A DNA stretch of 50,343 nucleotides, taken from the sequence record NC_048204.1. One strand, 5' to 3'. The stretch comes from Escherichia phage vB_Eco_mar001J1. Below are positions 2,701-50,343 of the stretch, one piece after another; position 1 is the stretch's first letter; every line of letters starts with the position of its first letter. A program made the translations under genes and the position numbers. The notes under the pieces are model-generated. The model did not search any database. It saw nothing but the letters and a program-made list of their open reading frames with translations, and had not been told where the DNA came from.

Positions 2701-3186
2701 TCATTTTATGTATTCTGATTCCCAAATCATCCTCTGATTTATAGCATCATCCATTGATTTGAATGATTTTGATATTCTATTTGAGTTTACGCATATTGAA
2801 GCTACCCATAGATCATCTCTTTTATTATACATAACGCCAGTTATTCCGCTTGTATTGCTTTTTCTAACTCTACCGCAACCTTTTCTAAGGTTGTCTGAAT
2901 GACGTATTATTCTAAGGTTGTCGATATTGTCATTAGCCTCCTCGCCATCACAAACTGGGTTTTTATGATCTATGACAAATCCTTCTGGAATCTTACCGTT
3001 GTGCATTTCCCAAACTATTGAATGTCTGTAGTGCAGTTTTCCATTAAATCCTATTAAAACATATCCATATTCATTTTTGCACCCTGCAAAGTCTCCAGGT
3101 TTGACTCCTCCATTTCTCCCATTTCTCCTTACTTTCCAGTAAAGTATTCCATTTCTATATTCAAAATAATCACTCCAATTTATCAT
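2701..3186 (-). CDS. HNH homing endonuclease with AP2-like DNA-binding domain
   Basis: IDHKNPVCDGEEANDNIDNLR HNH motif and C-terminal SGITGV...W AP2-like segment. Confidence 0.8.
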   Translation of the reverse strand: MINWSDYFEYRNGILYWKVRRNGRNGGVKPGDFAGCKNEYGYVLIGFNGKLHYRHSIVWEMHNGKIPEGFVIDHKNPVCDGEEANDNIDNLRIIRHSDNLRKGCGRVRKSNTSGITGVMYNKRDDLWVASICVNSNRISKSFKSMDDAINQRMIWESEYIK

Positions 3187-7241: not shown

Positions 7242-7718
7242 ATGAAAGATGCACGAATTGCAGTGTCTACGGGTGAGATCGACAAGCGCACTATTAACGG
7301 TAACAACGGAACGCGACGAGGTAAAGACAAAAAGCCACGAAAACACCGAACCGGATTTCTTATCCTGCGAGATGAGGTAAAAGCAAGCCTGAAATCTCGC
7401 CTTGACATTCTGATCGAGTATTACGGCGGTGTTCCTGCTATGGCTCGACGTCTACGCGTATCTCAGCAAGTCGTTAACCAGTGGCGAAAGCGTGGCATGA
7501 TTTCAGCCGCTGGAGCACAAAAGGTGCATAACGACTACAAATATAATGGGTGCAAAGGATACCGCGCATCATTTTGTCGTCCAGATCTGCGGTTTGATTC
7601 TAACGGCAAGCCTCTTACTACCCGTTGCGACAAATACGAAATGTTGCGCGTAGTCAAAAATTCAGACTACGAACCAGGCGGACGATTCTACAAAGGTGAT
7701 AACAGCACGAATAGCTAA
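7242..7718 (+). CDS. Cro/YdaS-family helix-turn-helix DNA-binding protein
   Basis: YGGVPAMARRLRVSQQVVNQWRKRGMIS segment; GAGGTGA RBS. Confidence 0.55.
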   Translation: MKDARIAVSTGEIDKRTINGNNGTRRGKDKKPRKHRTGFLILRDEVKASLKSRLDILIEYYGGVPAMARRLRVSQQVVNQWRKRGMISAAGAQKVHNDYKYNGCKGYRASFCRPDLRFDSNGKPLTTRCDKYEMLRVVKNSDYEPGGRFYKGDNSTNS

Positions 7719-14152: not shown

Positions 14153-14195
14153 GTAGCACTTTTTGCTAAACGCCGCTTGTCGGATCGTGTATAGT
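14153..14195 (+). promoter_or_regulatory. Cassette promoter variant (TAGCACTTTTTGCTAAAC, TATAGT)
   Basis: One-base shorter A-run; TATAGT 21 bp after TTGCTA; upstream of lipoprotein gene. Confidence 0.45.
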
Positions 14196-19077: not shown

Positions 19078-19554
19078 CTACTTTCCGTGGTTTATGTGGA
19101 ATTTGTTTAAAACTTCAATCTCTATCCTCTTTTCTGCCGCATCCTGAAATGAATCAAAGTAAAATTCATGCCTAACACCATCAATCTTTGCTCTTGCAAT
19201 CCATTTTCCGCGACTAAAGTTTACCCCAGTAATTCCCGTCTTGCTGTTCCTGTAAAGCGACTTATTCTTGTTGTTAACACTCATTCTAACAAGTCTTAAG
19301 TTTGAAATATTGTCGTTCATTGTGTTGTGATCTATGTGATCAACTTGCATTCCATGCGGTATTTCTCCATTATGAATTTCCCAAACTATCCTGCTCCTGT
19401 AGTATCTTTCTACATCAATTGATATTCTAACCCTTTCTCCACTCTTCTTGCTTTTGCTTACGCTTCCTGCCTCACTTCCTTTCTTTATCCTTCTTCCTAC
19501 GTCTACAGCCCAAAATAACTTACCGTCATTATAATAAAAAATATCACGCCACAT
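19078..19554 (-). CDS. HNH-AP2 homing endonuclease inserted between tail genes I and J
   Basis: HNH motif MQVDHIDHNTMNDNISNLR; AP2-like TGITGV..W; start at MWRDIFYY with AAGGA RBS. Confidence 0.75.
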   Translation of the reverse strand: MWRDIFYYNDGKLFWAVDVGRRIKKGSEAGSVSKSKKSGERVRISIDVERYYRSRIVWEIHNGEIPHGMQVDHIDHNTMNDNISNLRLVRMSVNNKNKSLYRNSKTGITGVNFSRGKWIARAKIDGVRHEFYFDSFQDAAEKRIEIEVLNKFHINHGK

Positions 19555-34069: not shown

Positions 34070-35637
34070 TTATTGCGTAGACCAGCCAGCTTTTTCATCC
34101 TTGCCACCGGATCATCTGCCAAGTTCATTTCGACGTTAACAGCATCAACTATATTATCGACAATATCATCATGGGGATGAGAATCATCAAAAGTGAATGC
34201 TGCAACCTCTGCCAGTATCTCAGGCAGCATGGGGTGATTTTCTGGCAGCGCCACACGTCCGGCCCTCATTACTGGCGCGGCGTCCATTGCTCGCGTCACC
34301 TTGTCATTGCTTCGCTGAACGGGATTTATATCAATCGGGATCTTCTTTTTGGCCCCCTGAATCAAACCCGTGCCGCTGGCCTTATCCTCAATATGGATAC
34401 GTCGCAAGCTGCCACACTCCTTATTGCGCTTCCAGCACTGGTTAACGAAGGCAATAAAATTTAATTCAAGATCCGGCGCTTCCCACTTTCCGCGAATGCC
34501 ATCAATGAAGTAAACGCGATTCTTATACATACCCCAATAACAAAAAACTGAATAGTCATTAAGCTCTCCGGCCTTCTGCGCGGTATCTCCAGTGATAAAT
34601 GTGTATTCAAAGCGATCCGGTTTAGGAAGTGCGCATTTTTCGCCGCTGCCGTAATACTGGAACCACTCTGTTTTAAACACATTCCCGCCCAGCGCGATTG
34701 GTTGCTGTTGGTATTGGCTGGCGAACGTGTAAGGATCTGCATTGCGCAATGCAAGCAATTCCTCCGCGCTTTCCTTTGCAGGCCAAAATGAATAATGAGC
34801 AACGCCATCTATCATCACTGGCTTACTGGACAAAACATCGCGATCAAACTCTGGCTTTAACCAATCAGGAAGCGTTTCCCGATAATCCTCGGTAACGAGC
34901 GCCGGAATGCTCACGACCTTAAATTTGATGCCGCCCATACCGCCATTCGTCATAAACCAAGTCGAATCATTGACGTGTAGCCGCTGCTGAACCATTACAA
35001 TGGGCGTGGTGTCTTTCATTCGACGAGATCGCACGGTGTTTTTTAGGCGCATGTGTCCGGCTTCGCGCTTCGTCTTTGATAGCTGATCGTCTGGTTTGTC
35101 TGGATCGTCGAGAACCAGCATACCAGTGAAGCCATCATCCATGTAACCACCACGTAATCCCGTTACCTGTCCGCCAATGGATCGTGAATTGAGTTGCAGC
35201 CAGACTTTACCATCACGATTAAGCACAGCTATATCTTTTGCGCTGGCCTTTGCCATCTTGCAAGGCCATAGCTCTTGCCATTCCGGCGAACCGATAATCT
35301 CCCTTACTCGAATGCTGTTTTGCTGCACAAGTCCATCACTAAACGAAAGGTTTAAATTTCGCACCTTCTTGCTTTTCAGCATTGCGTAAACTGGCATGTG
35401 GATCGAGAATATTTCCGTTTTTGACGAACCAGGAGCAACGTTGAAAATCACGTTCTGCTCCTTGCCACTAATCACATCCTCAAGGCATCGGCAGATATAT
35501 GATAAATGCCAGTTACCTAAAAACTTTTGCCCCTGTAGCAAGCTAAACCAAATGCGGATCATCTTTTCGAATGAGTGGGCGCTCATTTCTTTAATGGCGC
35601 GTTTCTGCGCCGCTGTTAAGTCCTCCCAAATAATCAT
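34066..35637 (-). CDS. Terminase large subunit
   Basis: 523 aa with ATPase-like N-terminal region; position between small terminase and portal. Confidence 0.75.
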   Translation of the reverse strand: MIIWEDLTAAQKRAIKEMSAHSFEKMIRIWFSLLQGQKFLGNWHLSYICRCLEDVISGKEQNVIFNVAPGSSKTEIFSIHMPVYAMLKSKKVRNLNLSFSDGLVQQNSIRVREIIGSPEWQELWPCKMAKASAKDIAVLNRDGKVWLQLNSRSIGGQVTGLRGGYMDDGFTGMLVLDDPDKPDDQLSKTKREAGHMRLKNTVRSRRMKDTTPIVMVQQRLHVNDSTWFMTNGGMGGIKFKVVSIPALVTEDYRETLPDWLKPEFDRDVLSSKPVMIDGVAHYSFWPAKESAEELLALRNADPYTFASQYQQQPIALGGNVFKTEWFQYYGSGEKCALPKPDRFEYTFITGDTAQKAGELNDYSVFCYWGMYKNRVYFIDGIRGKWEAPDLELNFIAFVNQCWKRNKECGSLRRIHIEDKASGTGLIQGAKKKIPIDINPVQRSNDKVTRAMDAAPVMRAGRVALPENHPMLPEILAEVAAFTFDDSHPHDDIVDNIVDAVNVEMNLADDPVARMKKLAGLRNK

Positions 35638-36179
35638 TGTAATAACCTCTCTATTTCATCTTTTGAAAAACTACGATCTACACAATGGGTATGCAGCTTA
35701 ACTTTTGCTTTTGCGTATGCTGCGCGGCATTCCTCCTTCGTGTCGAAAAATCCAAGAAAGAAAACCATCCCGTTAACCTTGATTCGCGAATGCCATTTAC
35801 CCACTCTCTTCTCAAAGTATCCGCCAGTTATTTCGCTATATTCCCTGTTTTGCTGATTCTCAGATCCTGAAACATCGCTTAAGTTATCGGCCTTATTGTT
35901 TAGCTTATTGCCATCATTGTGATCTACAAATTCAGGCCAATAGCCATACACCAAAAACCAAACAACACTATGCGCCATAAATCGCCTACCGCCTTTTAAC
36001 TGGCCTCGGAAGTATCCATCTTTTGTTATTTCAACAAAAGCCTCTTTTCCGTTCTTTTTGGCGTGATACATGTTCTTAAATCTAAGGCATGTTGACGATG
36101 ACTCATCGTAATAAACATGCTTTAAAATCAGTTCTTCTTCCTCTTTCGTGACTGGTTTTGCTTTTCCGTTTACATGCAT
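35634..36179 (-). CDS. HNH-AP2 homing endonuclease inserted between the terminase subunit genes
   Basis: VDHNDGNKLNNKADNL HNH motif; C-terminal AP2-like segment; start at MHVNGK. Confidence 0.75.
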   Translation of the reverse strand: MHVNGKAKPVTKEEEELILKHVYYDESSSTCLRFKNMYHAKKNGKEAFVEITKDGYFRGQLKGGRRFMAHSVVWFLVYGYWPEFVDHNDGNKLNNKADNLSDVSGSENQQNREYSEITGGYFEKRVGKWHSRIKVNGMVFFLGFFDTKEECRAAYAKAKVKLHTHCVDRSFSKDEIERLLQ

Positions 36180-36220: not shown

Positions 36221-36754
36221 TTATTGGTTTAGCATGTCCAGAACATCATGCACAGCCTCTTTCACCTCATCGGCAGTTACTGCGTCAATGCTTGCATTAG
36301 CTGCCGCGCTCGCTTCAACGCTCACTGTTGCTGGCTTCTCTACTCCGATCTCTTTACCGATAAATCCAGCATTAATCATGTTATTTGCCGCAAGCTGGAA
36401 TTTTTGCTCGTAAATTACTTTATCAACAAACTCCATCACATCGCAGAATCCAGGCTCTTTACGCCATTTGCTTACAGCAGCCTCAGTCACGCCGAGATAC
36501 AAGCTGAATCCGTTAACCGTGAAAACGCGAGGCTTGTAAACTCTGCTCTCGTACACGTCACCCTGAAAGGAAGCAGTTTCAGCCGCCTGGATGTGATTCT
36601 CTTCGGCCCAAGTGAAATAGCGGATCGCCATATCAAAAACCTGTTCCGGCGTGTACTTGTGGCGGTTGTTTAGCGTAACAATATCGCCATAGGTTTTATT
36701 ATATAACTCTTTGAAATTTAATGCCTTTACAGCAGGCTCAACGTTTTTAGCCAT
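36221..36754 (-). CDS. Terminase small subunit (putative)
   Basis: Position upstream of large terminase; strong AGGAGG RBS at MAKNVEP. Confidence 0.5.
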   Translation of the reverse strand: MAKNVEPAVKALNFKELYNKTYGDIVTLNNRHKYTPEQVFDMAIRYFTWAEENHIQAAETASFQGDVYESRVYKPRVFTVNGFSLYLGVTEAAVSKWRKEPGFCDVMEFVDKVIYEQKFQLAANNMINAGFIGKEIGVEKPATVSVEASAAANASIDAVTADEVKEAVHDVLDMLNQ

Positions 36755-42397: not shown

Positions 42398-42861
42398 TAT
42401 TGCTCCTCCTCTTTGATGATTTCGCGGATCATATCCTGGTAGCGGCTTACGCCCTCACAAGCCCCAGCCAGCTTATCCCCTTCCAGGTCCACGATATTCG
42501 GGATTGTTGCCAGTAAGCGATCGGCAAGCTTTTTGATCGCCCTTGCCTTGATGGCTGGCAATTCTTCGGGCGTGATGATTTTCCTTTTCGATTCGCGGAC
42601 CATGCGGAAAACGTAAAATTTATCATCTTCCGTTTCCTCTACCTTGATGCTTACCCGACCTGCGGCCCTTACTTCTGGAACGCGGTTGATAATGGTCCGG
42701 CTGTAGGATGAACTGCGCGTGATCTTGTAACAGTCGTCACCGCTTAACATTCCGGCCAGGTCAATTAGTGACATTTTATACTCTTCAATATCGCCACTGG
42801 CCAGGCGGCGACCAAGCTCGCGAAGCCAATCGCAATAGTCCTTAGTGGTCTTCTGTTCCAT
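42397..42861 (-). CDS. Hypothetical protein (154 aa), first gene of the leftward early operon
   Basis: Start at MEQKTTKDY with GGAGG RBS; consensus promoter upstream. Confidence 0.55.
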   Translation of the reverse strand: MEQKTTKDYCDWLRELGRRLASGDIEEYKMSLIDLAGMLSGDDCYKITRSSSYSRTIINRVPEVRAAGRVSIKVEETEDDKFYVFRMVRESKRKIITPEELPAIKARAIKKLADRLLATIPNIVDLEGDKLAGACEGVSRYQDMIREIIKEEEQ

Positions 42862-42892
42862 TTCCTTTCCTCCAGTTGTTGACTGTTGGCGC

Positions 42893-42920
42893 ATTATAAA
42901 AGCTATTTGGTGCGTGTCAA
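42893..42920 (-). promoter_or_regulatory. Consensus sigma70 promoter (TTGACA, 16-bp spacer, TATAAT) for the leftward early operon
   Basis: Both hexamers match consensus exactly, about 30 bp upstream of the 42861 start. Confidence 0.65.
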
Positions 42921-43200
42921 TGTTTTTGTTGTATTCAAAACGTTACCAATATCGAAAAACTACAAAATCATGCGCAAGTTGTTGATTTCAGGGCTGTTAT
43001 TTTTCTGTTCACGCTGTTAACGCAATCCGCCGGAAAAAGTATATATACATATGCAATCCGCCGCGCGCGCAACTATCCATATATGCCCACACACAACCAC
43101 ACCATAGCCAACAAAAAGCACTGTAACAGTGAGAACAAAAAGAAAACATTATAGATATATATAAATAAATAATCTTTATTTTCAATGTATTATAGAGGAT
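42893..43200. repeat. Divergent control region B, homologous to 13757-14070
   Basis: Same ordered blocks as region A, including the AT-rich TATAGATATATATAAATAAATAAT tract. Confidence 0.6.
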
Positions 43201-43408
43201 TTTCTTTGTTTTTTCCGTTTTCGCTACACCGGAAAACCGCGCGGAAACACGCCGCCTGAAATCGGTAACAGGGGTGAACAAAAGACAACAACCACTGACA
43301 GCCAGGCGGAAAAGTGAGGCAAGAGGGGAAGGTTTCACTATCTCCCCTGCAACCAATGATTAAGCGTGATTACTTTTCTCATCAAATTTGCAAAGGCAAT
43401 CATCATTT

Positions 43409-43448
43409 TGACGTGATTTGATTACGAATGATTACTTCTGATTATTTC
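43409..43448. repeat. Tandem 10-bp direct repeats TGATTAC(N3), iteron-like
   Basis: TGATTACGAA, TGATTACTTC, TGATTATTTC in register, partial copy upstream and another GTGATTAC at 43365. Confidence 0.5.
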
Positions 43449-43475
43449 GATCACAATCCTGGCGCTAACCGTCAA

Positions 43476-43519
43476 ATAGCACTTTTTGTTAAAACTCAGG
43501 CCGTCTGATCGGGTACATT
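43476..43519 (+). promoter_or_regulatory. Cassette promoter candidate for the rightward early operon (20-mer, TACATT, TCGAAACGAA leader)
   Basis: 22 bp between TTGTTA and TACATT. Confidence 0.55.
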
Positions 43520-43553
43520 ACACACATCGAAACGAACCGCTCAGGAGATAGCA

Positions 43554-43826
43554 ATGAACATCAGCAAAACCACTTTCAACTTCTCTAAGCGTCACGGTCT
43601 GGATCTGACTGTTGAAGATTTTGGCGATGTTCTGCAACTCTGCATTTGGGAAGCAGATAACGATTGCGAGTGGCTTTGCTCTTATCGTATCAACTACGAT
43701 TGCTTGACCTGGCACGGCAATATCTATCTGCCGCAAGAAGTGAAGGAAGAATTGCCAGCGACTATCAACAACGAGGTTTTCTTGCGTCAGGTGCTGAAAT
43801 TTATCAGTGAGGAGATCAAGAAGTAA
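43554..43826 (+). CDS. Hypothetical protein (90 aa)
   Basis: GGAG RBS. Confidence 0.55.
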   Translation: MNISKTTFNFSKRHGLDLTVEDFGDVLQLCIWEADNDCEWLCSYRINYDCLTWHGNIYLPQEVKEELPATINNEVFLRQVLKFISEEIKK

Positions 43827-44092
43827 TGGCGGTGATTACCGAAAATGATTTGGATCTGGCGGAGGCATTTTGCAGGGCCGCCAGGGCTAACCTGGATGTG
43901 GCTACTAAATTTCTTCCGGTGCGCCCACTCTTTTCGTGTGCGCCCGTGAATAAACCGACTCGCGTAATGATCGTGATTGAAGGTGATGGCCTGTACGCTG
44001 AAAAGACGTTCCACATCAGCAACATTAAGGGTCGTGCTGATTTTATCAATGATGTTTGCTTATTGCAGGAGAAGAAAAAATGTTGGATGTGA
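43826..44092 (+). CDS. Hypothetical protein (88 aa)
   Basis: TAATG start/stop overlap. Confidence 0.5.
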   Translation: MAVITENDLDLAEAFCRAARANLDVATKFLPVRPLFSCAPVNKPTRVMIVIEGDGLYAEKTFHISNIKGRADFINDVCLLQEKKKCWM

Positions 44093-44289: not shown

Positions 44290-44503
44290 AATGTTCAAGA
44301 AATTGTTATGGCTGTACCGTTCCAGGCGCAACAAGGGATATTGCAGGGGCACGGAAAGTAATCTTGATCGCGCTTATAAATACTGCCTGTTGTTGCTCGC
44401 CAGTCTGCCGGAAAACAGGAAGGAATATATTGCACTGCGAGAAATAACAATGCGGATATATAGTTACCGCAATAAACTATACGTCTTTAAATCTTTACGA
44501 TAA
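44276..44503 (+). CDS. Hypothetical basic protein (about 70 aa), start uncertain (44276 or 44291)
   Basis: Track ORF 44105..44503 trimmed to the first ATG beyond the upstream gene; weak RBS. Confidence 0.35.
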   Translation: MGVSEMFKKLLWLYRSRRNKGYCRGTESNLDRAYKYCLLLLASLPENRKEYIALREITMRIYSYRNKLYVFKSLR

Positions 44504-44854: not shown

Positions 44855-45052
44855 ATGGAAAATCAGGTTGATGTTAAAGTTGTTAAGCGCGACAAGTCTC
44901 ACGAAAAAGGTTTGTTTAAGAAAGGTGCTGAAATCACAATTGACCTTGATGATATGGAGGCGTACCACTCAGGGCTAACTTGGAACGTGCGCAAATGTGA
45001 AAACGGACTGTTCAAGTTAAATGGCTTTGAAACATACATGGAGATCATTTAA
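44855..45052 (+). CDS. Hypothetical protein (65 aa)
   Basis: Track ORF, ATG start. Confidence 0.5.
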   Translation: MENQVDVKVVKRDKSHEKGLFKKGAEITIDLDDMEAYHSGLTWNVRKCENGLFKLNGFETYMEII

Positions 45053-45333
45053 TGGCATACGAAAAGAATGATTTCAATAGCGCAAGAGAAAAAATCAAGG
45101 CGGCGCGAATTAAACAGCGCGCCTTTAGATTCTGGCTTGACTATCGCGATCTAAGAAAAGAGATGGATATGCTTATTAAGACTGGTAGCGCATTCTGCTC
45201 TAATAGAACGGTTTGGCGAAATATGAATGCGCAGTACGGCCAGGGTAAAATTCGTGTATTTGGCGGCGCTGTTGATGCTTATGTATTTAGCGCAACAAGG
45301 GCTGTAAGTTTTAACGTAACTGGGATCGCATAA
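45052..45333 (+). CDS. Hypothetical protein (93 aa)
   Basis: TAATG overlap. Confidence 0.5.
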   Translation: MAYEKNDFNSAREKIKAARIKQRAFRFWLDYRDLRKEMDMLIKTGSAFCSNRTVWRNMNAQYGQGKIRVFGGAVDAYVFSATRAVSFNVTGIA

Positions 45334-47063: not shown

Positions 47064-47291
47064 ATGACAAAGAAGAGAACAATAAAATGCACAAAAGTTT
47101 ACCACCACATGAACAGCGTAAAGCCAGGTCAGCATTTTAAGGAAGGGAAACGCTATGAGATAATTATGGGAAGGGTTTTAGGCGCTGTAGCTGGTTACGT
47201 TGTTGATGCTCAAGGTGAGCAATGGACTCTTGAAAGACGCGAGGTGGGATTTAAATGTGCAATAGCGGAATTTCAAGGCAAGTACTTCTAA
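47064..47291 (+). CDS. Hypothetical protein (75 aa)
   Basis: AAGGAGA RBS. Confidence 0.55.
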   Translation: MTKKRTIKCTKVYHHMNSVKPGQHFKEGKRYEIIMGRVLGAVAGYVVDAQGEQWTLERREVGFKCAIAEFQGKYF

Positions 47292-47776
47292 ATTTATTTA
47301 TATATGAAAATGGTCGTCTATTATGGAAAAGCCCATCAGGAAGACGGGCAAAAATTGGCGATGAGGCAGGTTATATAACTAAAAACGGATATAGACGTAT
47401 AGGTATTGGTGGCAGAGAGTATCCGGCGCATTGGATTGTTTGGTGGATGCATGGAAAAACAATACCAAAAGGAATGGAGATAGATCACGTGAATCACATA
47501 AGAGATGACAATAGAATCGAAAACCTCCGGCTTGTCACAAGAAAACAAAACTCACAAAACCACACAAGGAGATCGACAAATAAATCTGGTTATACTGGCG
47601 TGATGTGGAATAAGAGGGTGTCTAAATGGTGCGTACAAGTAACTGTTGATGGCAGGTGTATTTCTGGTGGTTATCATGCATCAATTGATAGCGCTGTATC
47701 ATCAAGAGATGCTATTTGGAAAAAGTACGGATTCCACGAAAACCACGGAAGCGAGAAGCCTTATGATCAAGACTGA
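47255..47776 (+). CDS. HNH-AP2 homing endonuclease
   Basis: MEIDHVNHIRDDNRIENLR HNH motif; SGYTGV...W AP2-like segment. Confidence 0.75.
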   Translation: MCNSGISRQVLLNLFIYENGRLLWKSPSGRRAKIGDEAGYITKNGYRRIGIGGREYPAHWIVWWMHGKTIPKGMEIDHVNHIRDDNRIENLRLVTRKQNSQNHTRRSTNKSGYTGVMWNKRVSKWCVQVTVDGRCISGGYHASIDSAVSSRDAIWKKYGFHENHGSEKPYDQD

Positions 47777-48052: not shown

Positions 48053-49633
48053 ATGTTTTCATTAGAAACGAACAAATTAACTCCACAGCAAATAATCGCT
48101 ATGGCTGAAAGCCAGAACCTTTCGCCAGTTCGCGTATCAATTCAGGCTAACGGCTATCGCCAGTCGTCAAGCTTTTGGGGCGACGTGAAGGATGTAAATA
48201 GCGGTCACGATCGCTACCCCGTAATTTCTCTTGGTAATGATATTGATGTTGTCGGCAAGTTATCACGCAGTATTGCGCGATCAGTTCAATTCCCTGAATC
48301 ATCGGCTTACATGCACTTTATCGGCTGCATTTCTGCCTCTATGCTTGGACGCTTTACAGTTGACTATCACGGAACCGATCAGCCGACTGCGCTTTACGTC
48401 GTTACAAGCCAGCCGCCGTCAACTGGTAAATCTGCGATCAACAGTATGGCTATTGCTCCGATGATTGCGGAAGTTGAGAAGATCAACGAGCAACGCCGCA
48501 AGGAAAGAAAGAAAATACAGGCAAAGTTGGCAGGTCTTGCAAAGGAGATGAAAAGCGAAAGATCAGGCGCTGATATGGAATCTCTATACCAGGAAAAAGA
48601 GGATCTGGAGGAGAAGCTGGAAAAGATGTGTGATATAACTTTCCCTGTTTCAGATACCACTCCAGAAGGATTGGCGAAAATCAACAACAAGCAAGGTAAC
48701 TTTGCCGTAATATCTGACGAAGCAACAAGTATTAACAGCCTGTTAGGCTTGACCTATGCCAATAGCGAAAGGAAGACTAACAGCGAGCTAGTGCTTAAGG
48801 CGTGGGATAATGGTCACGTATCAATTGCCCGTGCTAATGCTGACAATAACATGAGTTTTCGCGCGCTTGGATGTATGAGCGTTATAGCCCAGGATGAAAC
48901 GATAAGCGGAATCATGGACGCTGGATCGCGCGGTATCGGTGTGAGTGAGCGCTTTTTGTTGGTCCGCGAAGAATCATTCTTAGGCCGTCGCTCATTCATT
49001 GATGAAAATGGTGATTCTACCTATGAGGCGGTGGATTCTGAATTGAAAGCCCAATATTATCAATTGGTGCATAACATCATGAGCGAATCAAATATATCGC
49101 TGAAAATAAGCCGTTCAGCTATGCGAGTGCTCAACATTGCTCGTCAGGATATGGAACCGCATCTTGCAGACGGCGGAAAGTATTCTCATACAATGTTGCG
49201 CGGTGCGCTGGGTAAAATGGATAAACAGGTGATCAGGCTTGCTTCCGTCCTGCATGTTATCCGTAACTGGTTTAATCCTGCCGGATACCCGCAGAAGTCG
49301 AAAGAGATCGGCGTGGAAACAATGCAAGAGGCGTTGATAATGTTTCAGGAATTGAGCAAAACATACATTAGCGCCGCCAATGCTTCTGGTTATGCTGGTG
49401 ATGATGCTGAAATGGGTAAATTGATTGAATTGATCACGAGGCACGGCAAGGCTAACAAAGGGATCCTGAATATTCGCGCCCTGTACGAATCAGCGAGAAA
49501 GGTAAAACCTTTCGTTGGTCAGGCTGGCGTAATGAAGAGGATAGAAGGGCACTTGCTGCCAATGCTGGAAGAAAGAAATTATGTTTGTGTGATTAATGGT
49601 GTTATTTTTGTCAATCCAATACTGCTGGGATGA
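48053..49633 (+). CDS. P-loop NTPase of unknown role (possibly replication-associated)
   Basis: Walker A-like SQPPSTGKSA and Walker B-like AVISDEAT; 526 aa; central coiled-coil. Confidence 0.4.
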   Translation: MFSLETNKLTPQQIIAMAESQNLSPVRVSIQANGYRQSSSFWGDVKDVNSGHDRYPVISLGNDIDVVGKLSRSIARSVQFPESSAYMHFIGCISASMLGRFTVDYHGTDQPTALYVVTSQPPSTGKSAINSMAIAPMIAEVEKINEQRRKERKKIQAKLAGLAKEMKSERSGADMESLYQEKEDLEEKLEKMCDITFPVSDTTPEGLAKINNKQGNFAVISDEATSINSLLGLTYANSERKTNSELVLKAWDNGHVSIARANADNNMSFRALGCMSVIAQDETISGIMDAGSRGIGVSERFLLVREESFLGRRSFIDENGDSTYEAVDSELKAQYYQLVHNIMSESNISLKISRSAMRVLNIARQDMEPHLADGGKYSHTMLRGALGKMDKQVIRLASVLHVIRNWFNPAGYPQKSKEIGVETMQEALIMFQELSKTYISAANASGYAGDDAEMGKLIELITRHGKANKGILNIRALYESARKVKPFVGQAGVMKRIEGHLLPMLEERNYVCVINGVIFVNPILLG

Positions 49634-50186: not shown

Positions 50187-50343
50187 TGTTTCATCGAAAC
50201 GAAACAACCAAAAGGTAAAATTATGTCCAGCAAGTTTTTAGTAGTTCGCGTATATAATCATGACAACGAATCTTCTTCTGAAATCCCGACAATTTATGAC
50301 AGGGATTTTGGATGGAGTGAGCAATCGGCTGTTGAAAATGAGC

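What the first reader, a model, noticed from the sequence alone, without database searches (positions are those of the whole stretch)
43200..43475. Iteron-like 10-bp tandem repeats and short direct repeats next to the rightward early promoter
Between control region B and cassette promoter 43476-43519 lie three in-register 10-bp repeats, TGATTACGAA, TGATTACTTC and TGATTATTTC (43419-43448), with partial copies upstream (GTGATTT at 43413, GTGATTAC at 43365). Region B itself carries duplicated GCAATCCGCC (43024, 43053) and CCGGAAAA motifs. Helical-phase tandem sites beside an AT-rich tract are typical of replication origins or operator arrays; the nearby Cro-like HTH protein (7242-7718) or the P-loop protein (48053-49633) are candidate binders.
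Basis: seen in the sequence. Interest (0 to 1): 0.5.

Follow-up and report, generated by a model that had tools for sequence, protein, structure and literature searches.

The report
Phased TGATTA repeats near phage genome end
Three evenly spaced copies of a 7-base word in a T1-like coliphage are real and non-random and look like a protein docking site, more likely for DNA packaging than for replication, though no binding protein could be identified from sequence.

Summary
The window is Escherichia phage vB_Eco_mar001J1, a T1-like Warwickvirus. The three in-register units at 43419-43448 exist as described. They are the only exact 6-mer x3 at period 8-12 in the 50-kb genome (2 of 5000 shuffles of the intergenic region). 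In 16 distinct relatives, 0 of 21 core positions vary, against 2 of 9 spacer positions.

The array is the single such cluster in the genome. It lies in a 190-bp module (43284-43474) inherited as one block. That module also holds the spot where several T1-like GenBank records are linearised (about 43338-43400); T1's record starts its terminal repeat in the same intergenic region.

Across 13 lineages, TGATT/AATCA words are 3.4-fold enriched here and helically phased. Runs at exact 10-bp spacing recur in four lineages, on either strand and at variable distance from the promoter.

The AT-rich island is 220 bp away. No initiator is adjacent and no DnaA boxes occur, so the origin reading is weak. 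TerS, gp66 and gp52 all split with the same 59-record clade, so covariation cannot name a binder.

Best guess (0.4): terminase-recognition part of pac.

Side finding: the adjacent 21-mer "cassette" fits the MarA/SoxS/Rob marbox in class II geometry.

The parts
43419..43448 (+). Three in-register 10-bp units TGATTACGAA, TGATTACTTC, TGATTATTTC (7-bp core plus 3-bp spacer)
   Evidence: cores invariant in 16 distinct relatives (0/21 positions variable), spacers 2/9 variable
43449..43454 (+). Degenerate fourth unit GATCAC, 9 bp after unit 3; carries a GATC; reads GATTAC in L011 and GATCGC in EC167
43413..43419 (+). Partial copy GTGATTT, overlapping unit 1 by one base; positions 43412 and 43414 vary among relatives
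43357..43373 (+). Upstream pair TGATTAA-GCG-TGATTAC, 10 bp start to start. The pair is 52 bp (about 5 helical turns) before unit 1. The (A/G)TTAA core (43359-43363, within TGATTAA) is invariant in all 8 sequences of alignment A1
43398..43402 (-). Single inverted TGATT word (AATCA on the + strand) between the two direct groups
43324..43350 (.). C-rich boundary zone. Imperfectly conserved hairpin AGGGGA-N13-TCCCCT. XY3 is linearised at 43338/43339 (GGTTTCAC|TATCTCCCC). PHB17 and Pocis76 break at the homologous CAC|TA, and haarsle about 11 nt to the right
   Evidence: hairpin not kept in MikeNSara
43284..43474 (.). Right-hand module, inherited as one block. It is the same in mar001J1 and MikeNSara although their left halves differ, and is replaced as a whole in WaterSpirit although the flanks are kept
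43475..43519 (+). Cassette promoter of gp39: 21-mer AATAGCACTTTTTGTTAAAAC (43475-43495), 18-nt spacer containing the conserved CTGATCGGG, then -10 TACATT (43514-43519)
43142..43200 (.). Context only: family-conserved AT-rich island (85-90% AT), flanked by inverted CTGTTA/TAACAG and CGGAAAA/TTTTCCG words. It belongs to the left-hand module, not to the repeat array

Best explanation
The TGATTA repeats are the mar001J1-clade version of a family-wide array of helically phased TGATT-core words. This array lies between the packaging-initiation end of the T1-type genome and the first rightward promoter. Most likely it is the recognition part of the pac site. An oligomer of the small terminase (gp18, P22 gp3 family, 36221-36754) would bind the phased words on one face of the DNA and bend or wrap it. 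That would position the large terminase to make the first cut some 20-110 bp to the left, around 43338-43400. Packaging would then run leftwards, towards the terminase and structural genes. Shown: the repeats, their non-randomness, their conservation, their single-copy status, the family-wide phasing, and the module structure. Inferred: the position of the cut (from record boundaries and the T1 annotation), the identity of the binder, and the mechanism.
For: (1) There is one cluster per genome, always at this locus. (2) T1's record starts its 2.8-kb terminal repeat inside the homologous intergenic region, about 35 bp from its own array. The SU57 paper states that the T1-type end and pac lie in this UTR. 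Independent records XY3, PHB17, Pocis76, haarsle and GS156 are linearised within roughly 20-30 bp of each other (XY3, PHB17 and Pocis76 at the homologous CAC|TA), some 10-110 bp left of the TGATTA words. (3) TGATT/AATCA occurs 54 times against 16 expected in the 230 nt upstream of the promoter core in 13 lineages. Runs of 3 or more at exactly 10 bp occur in mar001J1, IMGVR_030853, IMGVR_050399 and Tlsvirus GS156, on either strand and 36-153 bp from the promoter core. Phasing excluding mar001J1 is 16 of 26 spacings in phase, p = 5e-4. (4) The boundary zone and the array are exchanged as one block. (5) Core bases are constrained: 0/21 variable against 16/104 in the rest of the module, p = 0.04. 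(6) TerS belongs to the P22 gp3 family, whose pac contains GATTTAT (sequence quoted). Its N-terminal half is well conserved across the family, which fits a family-wide word.
Against: No terminus has been measured for mar001J1, and record boundaries are indirect and scatter over about 60 bp. PhageTerm often finds no clear end in T1-like phages. TerS cannot be singled out: gp66 and gp52 split into the same 59 records, and the putative TerS helix-turn-helix does not track array type. The array lies on the side of the cut that is not packaged first. A scan of phage lambda for a similar cluster, based on a remembered report of T1 packaging initiation between lambda genes P and Q that I could not verify, found nothing. 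The array also abuts a promoter, so a regulatory role fits the position in this clade equally well.
Confidence: 0.4

Rival explanations
1. Regulatory array for the first rightward promoter. A phage or host DNA-binding protein occupies the phased sites upstream of the gp39 cassette promoter and switches it on or off during infection.
For: The array ends 26 bp from the 21-mer promoter element. It stays with that element when the downstream gene is replaced (L075). At the same position T1, Hanrivervirus, WaterSpirit, L021 and L022 carry a 2+2 inverted TTATTCC/GGAATAA array with conserved geometry in diverged background. Its last copy overlaps the 21-mer in T1, WaterSpirit, L021 and L022. This promoter has a uniquely conserved spacer, CTGATCGGG.
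Against: The mar001J1 units are direct repeats at about -77 to -107, not overlapping core elements. None of the other 12 cassette promoters has them. There is only one cluster per genome. In GS156 and IMGVR_050399 the phased run is inverted and 97-153 bp from the promoter core. The flanking genes gp38, gp39 and gp40 do not co-vary with array type. The gp66 helix does not track it either. No host-factor consensus fits.
Confidence: 0.2
2. Replication-origin iterons. A phage initiator binds the phased repeats and opens nearby AT-rich DNA.
For: The repeats are direct and in helical phase, single-copy per genome. They lie in the largest non-coding region, at the switch of transcription and GC skew. 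The origin of T1-like phages is unknown.
Against: The 85-90% AT island is 220 bp away, separated by a stretch of 38-47% AT, and has its own inverted repeats. It belongs to a different recombination module that goes with gp38 type. Cores are 7 bp, not 17-22 bp. No initiator gene is adjacent. There are no DnaA boxes. The GC-skew switch is explained by divergent transcription.
Confidence: 0.12
3. No function of its own. A 10-bp unit was duplicated by replication slippage in AT-rich spacer DNA, and it looks conserved only because the clade is young.
For: All 59 carriers are at least 94.5% identical over the segment, so conservation carries little weight. The per-site test is marginal (p = 0.04 to 0.08). 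Tandem Repeats Finder's score is below its usual threshold. Closest outgroups lack the exact repeat.
Against: Units 1 and 2 differ at all 3 spacer bases but at none of the 7 core bases, which is not what drift after a duplication predicts. Phased TGATT-core runs recur in three other, very divergent lineages, and the word is 3.4-fold enriched family-wide.
Confidence: 0.15

Closest known systems
Phage lambda cosB (R3-I1-R2-R1 small-terminase sites beside cosN); from established knowledge, not tested here
   Same: Several short terminase-recognition repeats spread over about 120 bp on one side of the cut site, single copy per genome, next to the start of a gene block.
   Different: In lambda the sites lie on the packaged side next to the terminase genes and need IHF. 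Here the array is about 7 kb from terS and on the side not packaged first, with no IHF consensus in it. The phage is a headful (pac) packager, not a cos packager.
Phage P1 pac (seven TGATCA/G hexamers, 4 + 3, flanking the cut, controlled by Dam methylation); recalled from memory, not tested
   Same: Short hexamer-type words repeated in two groups around the packaging cut. The words are one base apart (TGATCA against TGATTA). The fourth mar001J1 unit is GATCAC, with a Dam site, and the phage encodes Dam.
   Different: Only one unit here carries GATC. The arrangement is 2 + 1 inverted + 4, all on one side of the presumed cut. P1 PacA is not known to be related to the P22-gp3-type TerS found here.
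Phage P22 pac (22-bp GAAGATTTATCTGAAGTCGTTA; sequence as quoted in PMC11447400)
   Same: The TerS here is a P22 gp3 family member. The P22 site contains GATTTAT, close to TGATTTG and TGATTAT here.
   Different: P22 pac is a single asymmetric site inside the terS gene, not a phased array in an intergenic region 7 kb away.
Lambda ori iterons and plasmid iterons
   Same: Direct repeats in helical phase, single locus.
   Different: Iterons are 17-22 bp, lie within tens of bp of the AT-rich unwinding element, and sit in or beside the initiator gene. None of these holds here.
The 21-nt direct repeats of TLS and T1 (PMC11447400)
   Same: Same phage family, and the neighbouring element. The array abuts one copy of it.
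   Different: The 21-mer is a dispersed, promoter-associated element with 13 or more copies per genome. The TGATTA array is single-copy and absent from all other 21-mer copies.

Membership tests
Replication-origin iterons | Three or more direct repeats in helical phase | tested here: met
   Three exact-period 10-bp units plus partial copies; the cores are only 7 bp
Replication-origin iterons | AT-rich unwinding element directly adjacent (tens of bp) | tested here: not met
   Local AT content is 65-70%. The 85-90% AT island at 43142-43200 is 220 bp away, behind a 38-47% AT stretch
Replication-origin iterons | Cognate initiator gene adjacent to or containing the repeats, co-varying with them | tested here: not met
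   Flanking gp38, gp39 and gp40 do not track array type. No initiator family was found
Replication-origin iterons | Replication starts there | not testable with these tools
   Needs marker-frequency or 2D-gel data
Repressor/activator operator array | Sites overlap or directly abut the core promoter elements | tested here: not met
   Units lie about -77 to -107 from the inferred start site. In other lineages the run is 97-153 bp from the promoter core
Repressor/activator operator array | Cognate regulator identifiable and co-varying | tested here: inconclusive
   gp66, gp52 and TerS all split with the same 59 records. The gp66 helix does not track the array
Repressor/activator operator array | Same sites at other co-regulated promoters | tested here: not met
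   One cluster per genome. The other 12 cassette promoters lack it
pac / cosB-type terminase recognition array | Lies within about 150 bp of the packaging-initiation cut | tested here: inconclusive
   Indirect only: T1 terminal-repeat start, record boundaries of XY3, PHB17, Pocis76, haarsle and GS156, and the statement in PMC7718038. No read-level end data
pac / cosB-type terminase recognition array | Multiple short repeats, single locus per genome | tested here: met
pac / cosB-type terminase recognition array | Bound by the small terminase; mutations abolish packaging initiation | not testable with these tools
   Needs EMSA or footprinting and a plasmid-transduction or mutant-phage assay
Class II marbox promoter (for the adjacent 21-mer cassette, a side finding) | Match to AYnGCACnnWnnRYYAAAY | tested here: met
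   12-13 of 14 specified positions in all 13 copies. 17 sites at 13/14 or better against 1.35 expected. 17-21 per T1-like genome, 0 in lambda. Consensus taken from PMC3709825
Class II marbox promoter (for the adjacent 21-mer cassette, a side finding) | Forward orientation, overlapping and replacing the -35, centred near -41, canonical -10 | tested here: met
   The 21-mer ends 18 nt before a -10-like hexamer in all 13 copies, and no -35 match is present. Criteria from PMC10268841 and PMC12052159
Class II marbox promoter (for the adjacent 21-mer cassette, a side finding) | Bound and activated by MarA, SoxS or Rob | not testable with these tools
   Needs EMSA, in vitro transcription, or infection of rob/marA/soxS mutants

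The most novel reading that the evidence does not exclude
The phased TGATT-core array is the long-undefined pac recognition element of the whole T1 family, read by a P22-gp3-type small terminase. It sits on the non-packaged side of the cut and directly abuts a promoter that looks like a host Rob/MarA/SoxS class II promoter. Terminase assembly late in infection and early rightward transcription would then compete for the same 150 bp or so, coupling the start of packaging to shut-off of the early operon.
Probability: 0.12. Interest if true: 0.65.

Novelty: new member of a known kind. Interest (0 to 1): 0.4.

Why it matters
T1 is one of the classic T phages, yet its pac site and replication origin have never been defined at sequence level. 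The TLS re-annotation placed pac only by restriction mapping plus a weak resemblance to P22, and found no origin. A concrete 100-bp candidate made of phased TGATT words, present across the family, makes the question directly testable with a gel shift and a plasmid-transduction assay. T1-like phages are notorious laboratory and fermentation contaminants and also generalised transducers, so knowing the packaging signal has practical use. As a single-genome feature, though, the three repeats are an ordinary kind of cis element.

Tried and rejected
- **Rfam** on both strands of 42500-44000 gave only chance snoRNA-like hits, so an RNA gene is unlikely.
- **Promoter/terminator scan** found only the leftward consensus promoter.
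- **Per-gene covariation of array type over five genomes:**
  - gp38, gp39 and gp40-43 are excluded as binders.
  - TerS and gp66 are equidistant among lineages.
  - gp28 tracks array type but is a small membrane protein.
  - gp61 tracks it but has no good T1 counterpart.
- **Genes specific to one array type:** no DNA-binding gene is shared by vojen, WaterSpirit and T1 and missing from the mar001J1 group.
- **gp66 recognition-helix V/T residue** looked promising in 5 genomes but failed once phages without an array were added.
- **TerS allele against module across GenBank:** a perfect 59 = 59 match. However, gp66 and gp52 give the same 59, so this is clade membership, not specific linkage.
- **Host-factor consensus scans** (DnaA, IHF, Fur, CpxR-like) found nothing above chance in the array.
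- **Lambda scan** for a T1 pac-like cluster between genes P and Q, based on a remembered report I could not verify, was negative.
- **Hairpin at 43324-43348** is not conserved in MikeNSara, so I do not treat it as structural.
- **Literature:** the Rtp genome paper is not held. No accessible paper gives a base-level pac position for any T1-like phage.
- **Metagenome scan** added only 3 true relatives.

Full report
**Identity and setting.** The window is a rotated copy of Escherichia phage vB_Eco_mar001J1 (NC_048206/LR027388; Drexlerviridae, Tempevirinae, Warwickvirus), a T1-like virulent coliphage. The finding lies in the largest non-coding stretch of the genome, about 690 bp (42862-43553).
- To the left is the leftward block: gp38, then about 20 small ORFs, TerS, TerL and the structural genes.
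- To the right is the rightward block: gp39, small ORFs, methylase and the DUF3987 helicase.
- A perfect sigma-70 promoter (TTGACA-16-TATAAT, minus strand, 42920-42893) drives gp38.
- The gp39 side carries one copy of a dispersed 21-mer "cassette".

- The three units TGATTACGAA, TGATTACTTC and TGATTATTTC are at 43419-43448.
- I also found TGATTAA at 43357 (10 bp before the 43367 copy), an inverted AATCA at 43398, and a degenerate fourth unit GATCAC at 43449.
- TGATTA x3 at period 10 is the only exact 6-mer triple at period 8-12 in the 50-kb window. It arises in 2 of 5000 shuffles of the intergenic region and in 1.5% of whole-window shuffles.
- Units 1 and 2 share all 7 core bases and differ at all 3 spacer bases (P = 1/120). 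Drift after a simple duplication would not give this pattern.

**Conservation in close relatives.** Fifty-nine GenBank records, all Warwickvirus, carry the segment at 94.5% identity or more. In 16 distinct sequences:
- 0 of the 21 core positions vary.
- 2 of the 9 spacer positions vary.
- 16 of the other 104 positions in 43350-43474 vary (one-sided Fisher p = 0.04 against the rest and 0.08 against the spacers).
This is suggestive only, because the clade is young. The flanking partial copies do vary.

**Beyond the clade.**
- The intergenic region is built of modules. mar001J1 and MikeNSara share 43284-43553 but have unrelated left halves. WaterSpirit keeps the left half and the promoter but has a different 43260-43474.
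- In WaterSpirit, Hanrivervirus, T1 and two metagenomic lineages, the promoter-proximal position holds a different array: TTATTCC x2 followed by GGAATAA x2, inverted. Its geometry is kept in diverged background.
- Each genome has exactly one cluster of its motif, always here.
- TGATT/AATCA words are 3.4-fold enriched in the 230 nt upstream of this promoter in 13 lineages (54 against 16 expected).
- Runs of three or more at exactly 10-bp spacing recur in IMGVR_030853 (+ strand), IMGVR_050399 (- strand) and Tlsvirus GS156 (- strand), 36 to 153 bp from the promoter core.
- Leaving mar001J1 out, 16 of 26 same-strand spacings fall within 1.5 nt of a multiple of 10.4 bp, against 29% expected (p = 5e-4).
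The mar001J1 triple is therefore one instance of a family-wide, helically phased word array. Its strand and its distance to the promoter are not fixed.

**Where the genome end is.**
- T1's record opens with its 2.8-kb terminal repeat. Its position 1 falls inside the homologous intergenic region, 162 bp from the gp39 homologue and about 35 bp from T1's array.
- The SU57 paper says the T1-type end and pac lie in this UTR.
- XY3 is linearised at window 43338/43339. PHB17 and Pocis76 break at the homologous CAC|TA, and haarsle and GS156 10-20 nt to the right.
- These boundaries are indirect evidence and scatter over about 60 bp. All of them lie just left of the repeats and inside the same exchangeable module.

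**Who binds?** This could not be resolved.
- gp38, gp39 and gp40-43 are excluded by discordance with array type.
- TerS (P22 gp3 family), gp66 (Cro/YdaS-like helix-turn-helix) and gp52 (DUF3987 helicase) each split GenBank into the same 59 records against the rest. The perfect TerS/array co-occurrence is therefore only clade membership.
- The gp66 helix and the putative TerS helix do not track array type.
- No DnaA, Fur, IHF or CpxR-like consensus explains the array.

**Weighing the readings.**
- Origin: the AT island (43142-43200, 85-90% AT) is 220 bp away. It has its own inverted CTGTTA/TAACAG and CGGAAAA words and belongs to the left module, which goes with gp38 type. The array itself has no adjacent unwinding element or initiator.
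- Operator: the position beside the promoter fits in this clade. Against it are the direct-repeat form, the distance from the core promoter, absence from all other cassette promoters, and the variable strand and distance in other lineages.
- pac recognition: this fits the single-copy status, the linkage to the boundary zone, the independence from promoter geometry and the family-wide word.
I put pac recognition at 0.4, promoter control at 0.2, no function at 0.15, origin at 0.12, and the remainder on other roles.

**Side finding.**
- The 21-mer, known from TLS and T1 with unknown function, matches the MarA/SoxS/Rob marbox AYnGCACnnWnnRYYAAAY (consensus confirmed) at 12-13 of 14 specified positions in all 13 copies.
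- It ends exactly 18 nt before a -10-like hexamer and has no -35 match.
- This is the published class II geometry: forward orientation, centred near -41.
- T1-like genomes hold 17-21 such sites each; lambda holds none.
- No paper in the library links marboxes to these phages.

**Limits.** There are no read-level data, no binding data and no expression data. The packaging direction and the cut position are inferred from annotation and record boundaries.

Noticed in passing
window 43475-43495 and 12 further copies (3651, 4722, 7211, 25470, 29222, 38861, 41658, 42121, 44779, 46988, 47980, 50142), plus variants at 14153, 19597, 34051, 40156: The dispersed 21-mer AATAGCACTTTTTGTTAAAAC (the '21-nt direct repeat' of TLS/T1, function unknown in the literature) fits the E. 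coli MarA/SoxS/Rob marbox consensus at 12-13 of 14 specified positions. It sits exactly 18 nt upstream of a -10-like hexamer with no -35, which is class II marbox geometry. There are 17-21 such sites per T1-like genome and 0 in lambda. This suggests these phage promoters use host Rob/MarA/SoxS, or a phage mimic such as gp66.
   Followed up: partly
window 43496-43535; loci L002-L008, L013-L019: The gp39 promoter, unlike the other cassette copies, has a spacer and leader (CTGATCGGGTACATTACACACATCGAAAC) almost invariant across genera. A GATC (Dam site) between the 21-mer and the -10 recurs in most lineages even where the rest of the spacer differs.
   Followed up: no
L005 (WaterSpirit), L006-L008 (Hanrivervirus), T1 48767-48836, L021, L022: At the position of the TGATTA array, other lineages carry TTATTCC-N2-TTATTCC-N8-GGAATAA-N2-GGAATAA, a 2+2 inverted arrangement kept in diverged background. 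In T1, L021 and L022 the last copy is shifted by 10 bp and overlaps the start of the 21-mer (GGAATAGCAC). WaterSpirit keeps the compact 2+2 set and has an additional fifth GGAATAG copy overlapping the 21-mer. This looks like a separate, operator-like element.
   Followed up: partly
window 42994-43290: A family-conserved AT-rich island (43142-43200) is flanked by inverted CTGTTA/TAACAG words (42994+, 43014+, 43124-, 43266-) and CGGAAAA words. Other lineages have GTTATC/GATAAC there instead. The word type goes with the type of the adjacent DUF7174 protein gp38 (mar-WaterSpirit 67%, MikeNSara-vojen 58%, cross about 25%). This is the more origin-like anatomy in the region.
   Followed up: partly
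window 50217-50343 and 1-127: The last 127 bases of the window repeat its first 127 bases, and the GenBank record has the same kind of overlap. The true circle is 50,216 bp. This is probably an assembler k-mer overlap, not a biological terminal repeat.
   Followed up: yes
window about 44291-44503 (+) and 45052-45333 (+): An unannotated small ORF fills the gap between gp41 and gp42; it is annotated in MikeNSara. This ORF and gp44 are present in the mar001J1 group but absent from WaterSpirit, vojen and T1.
   Followed up: no
window 35634-36179 (gp17), 47255-47776 (gp50), 2701-3186 (gp59), 19078-19554 (gp76): Four HNH endonuclease genes of mar001J1, including one between TerS and TerL, have no counterpart in MikeNSara, WaterSpirit or vojen and only weak similarity in T1. 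They are probably mobile homing-type insertions.
   Followed up: no
cassette spacers, e.g. downstream of 3651(-), 4722(-), 42121(-), 46988(+), 50142(+): Several cassettes have a GC-rich inverted repeat (e.g. GCCCGGCCTAGTGTCGGGC) filling the 18-nt gap between the 21-mer and the -10. These might double as terminators for upstream transcription.
   Followed up: no
GenBank MG0656xx 'Campylobacter phage' records (e.g. L006): About 20 UNVERIFIED 'Campylobacter phage' records are T1-like Hanrivervirus/Warwickvirus sequences. The host label is likely wrong, or the sample was contaminated.
   Followed up: no
L075 (OKTK01000001.1): A metagenomic relative keeps the TGATTA array and the 21-mer but has a different -10 region and first gene. 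This places a recombination breakpoint immediately after the 21-mer.
   Followed up: no
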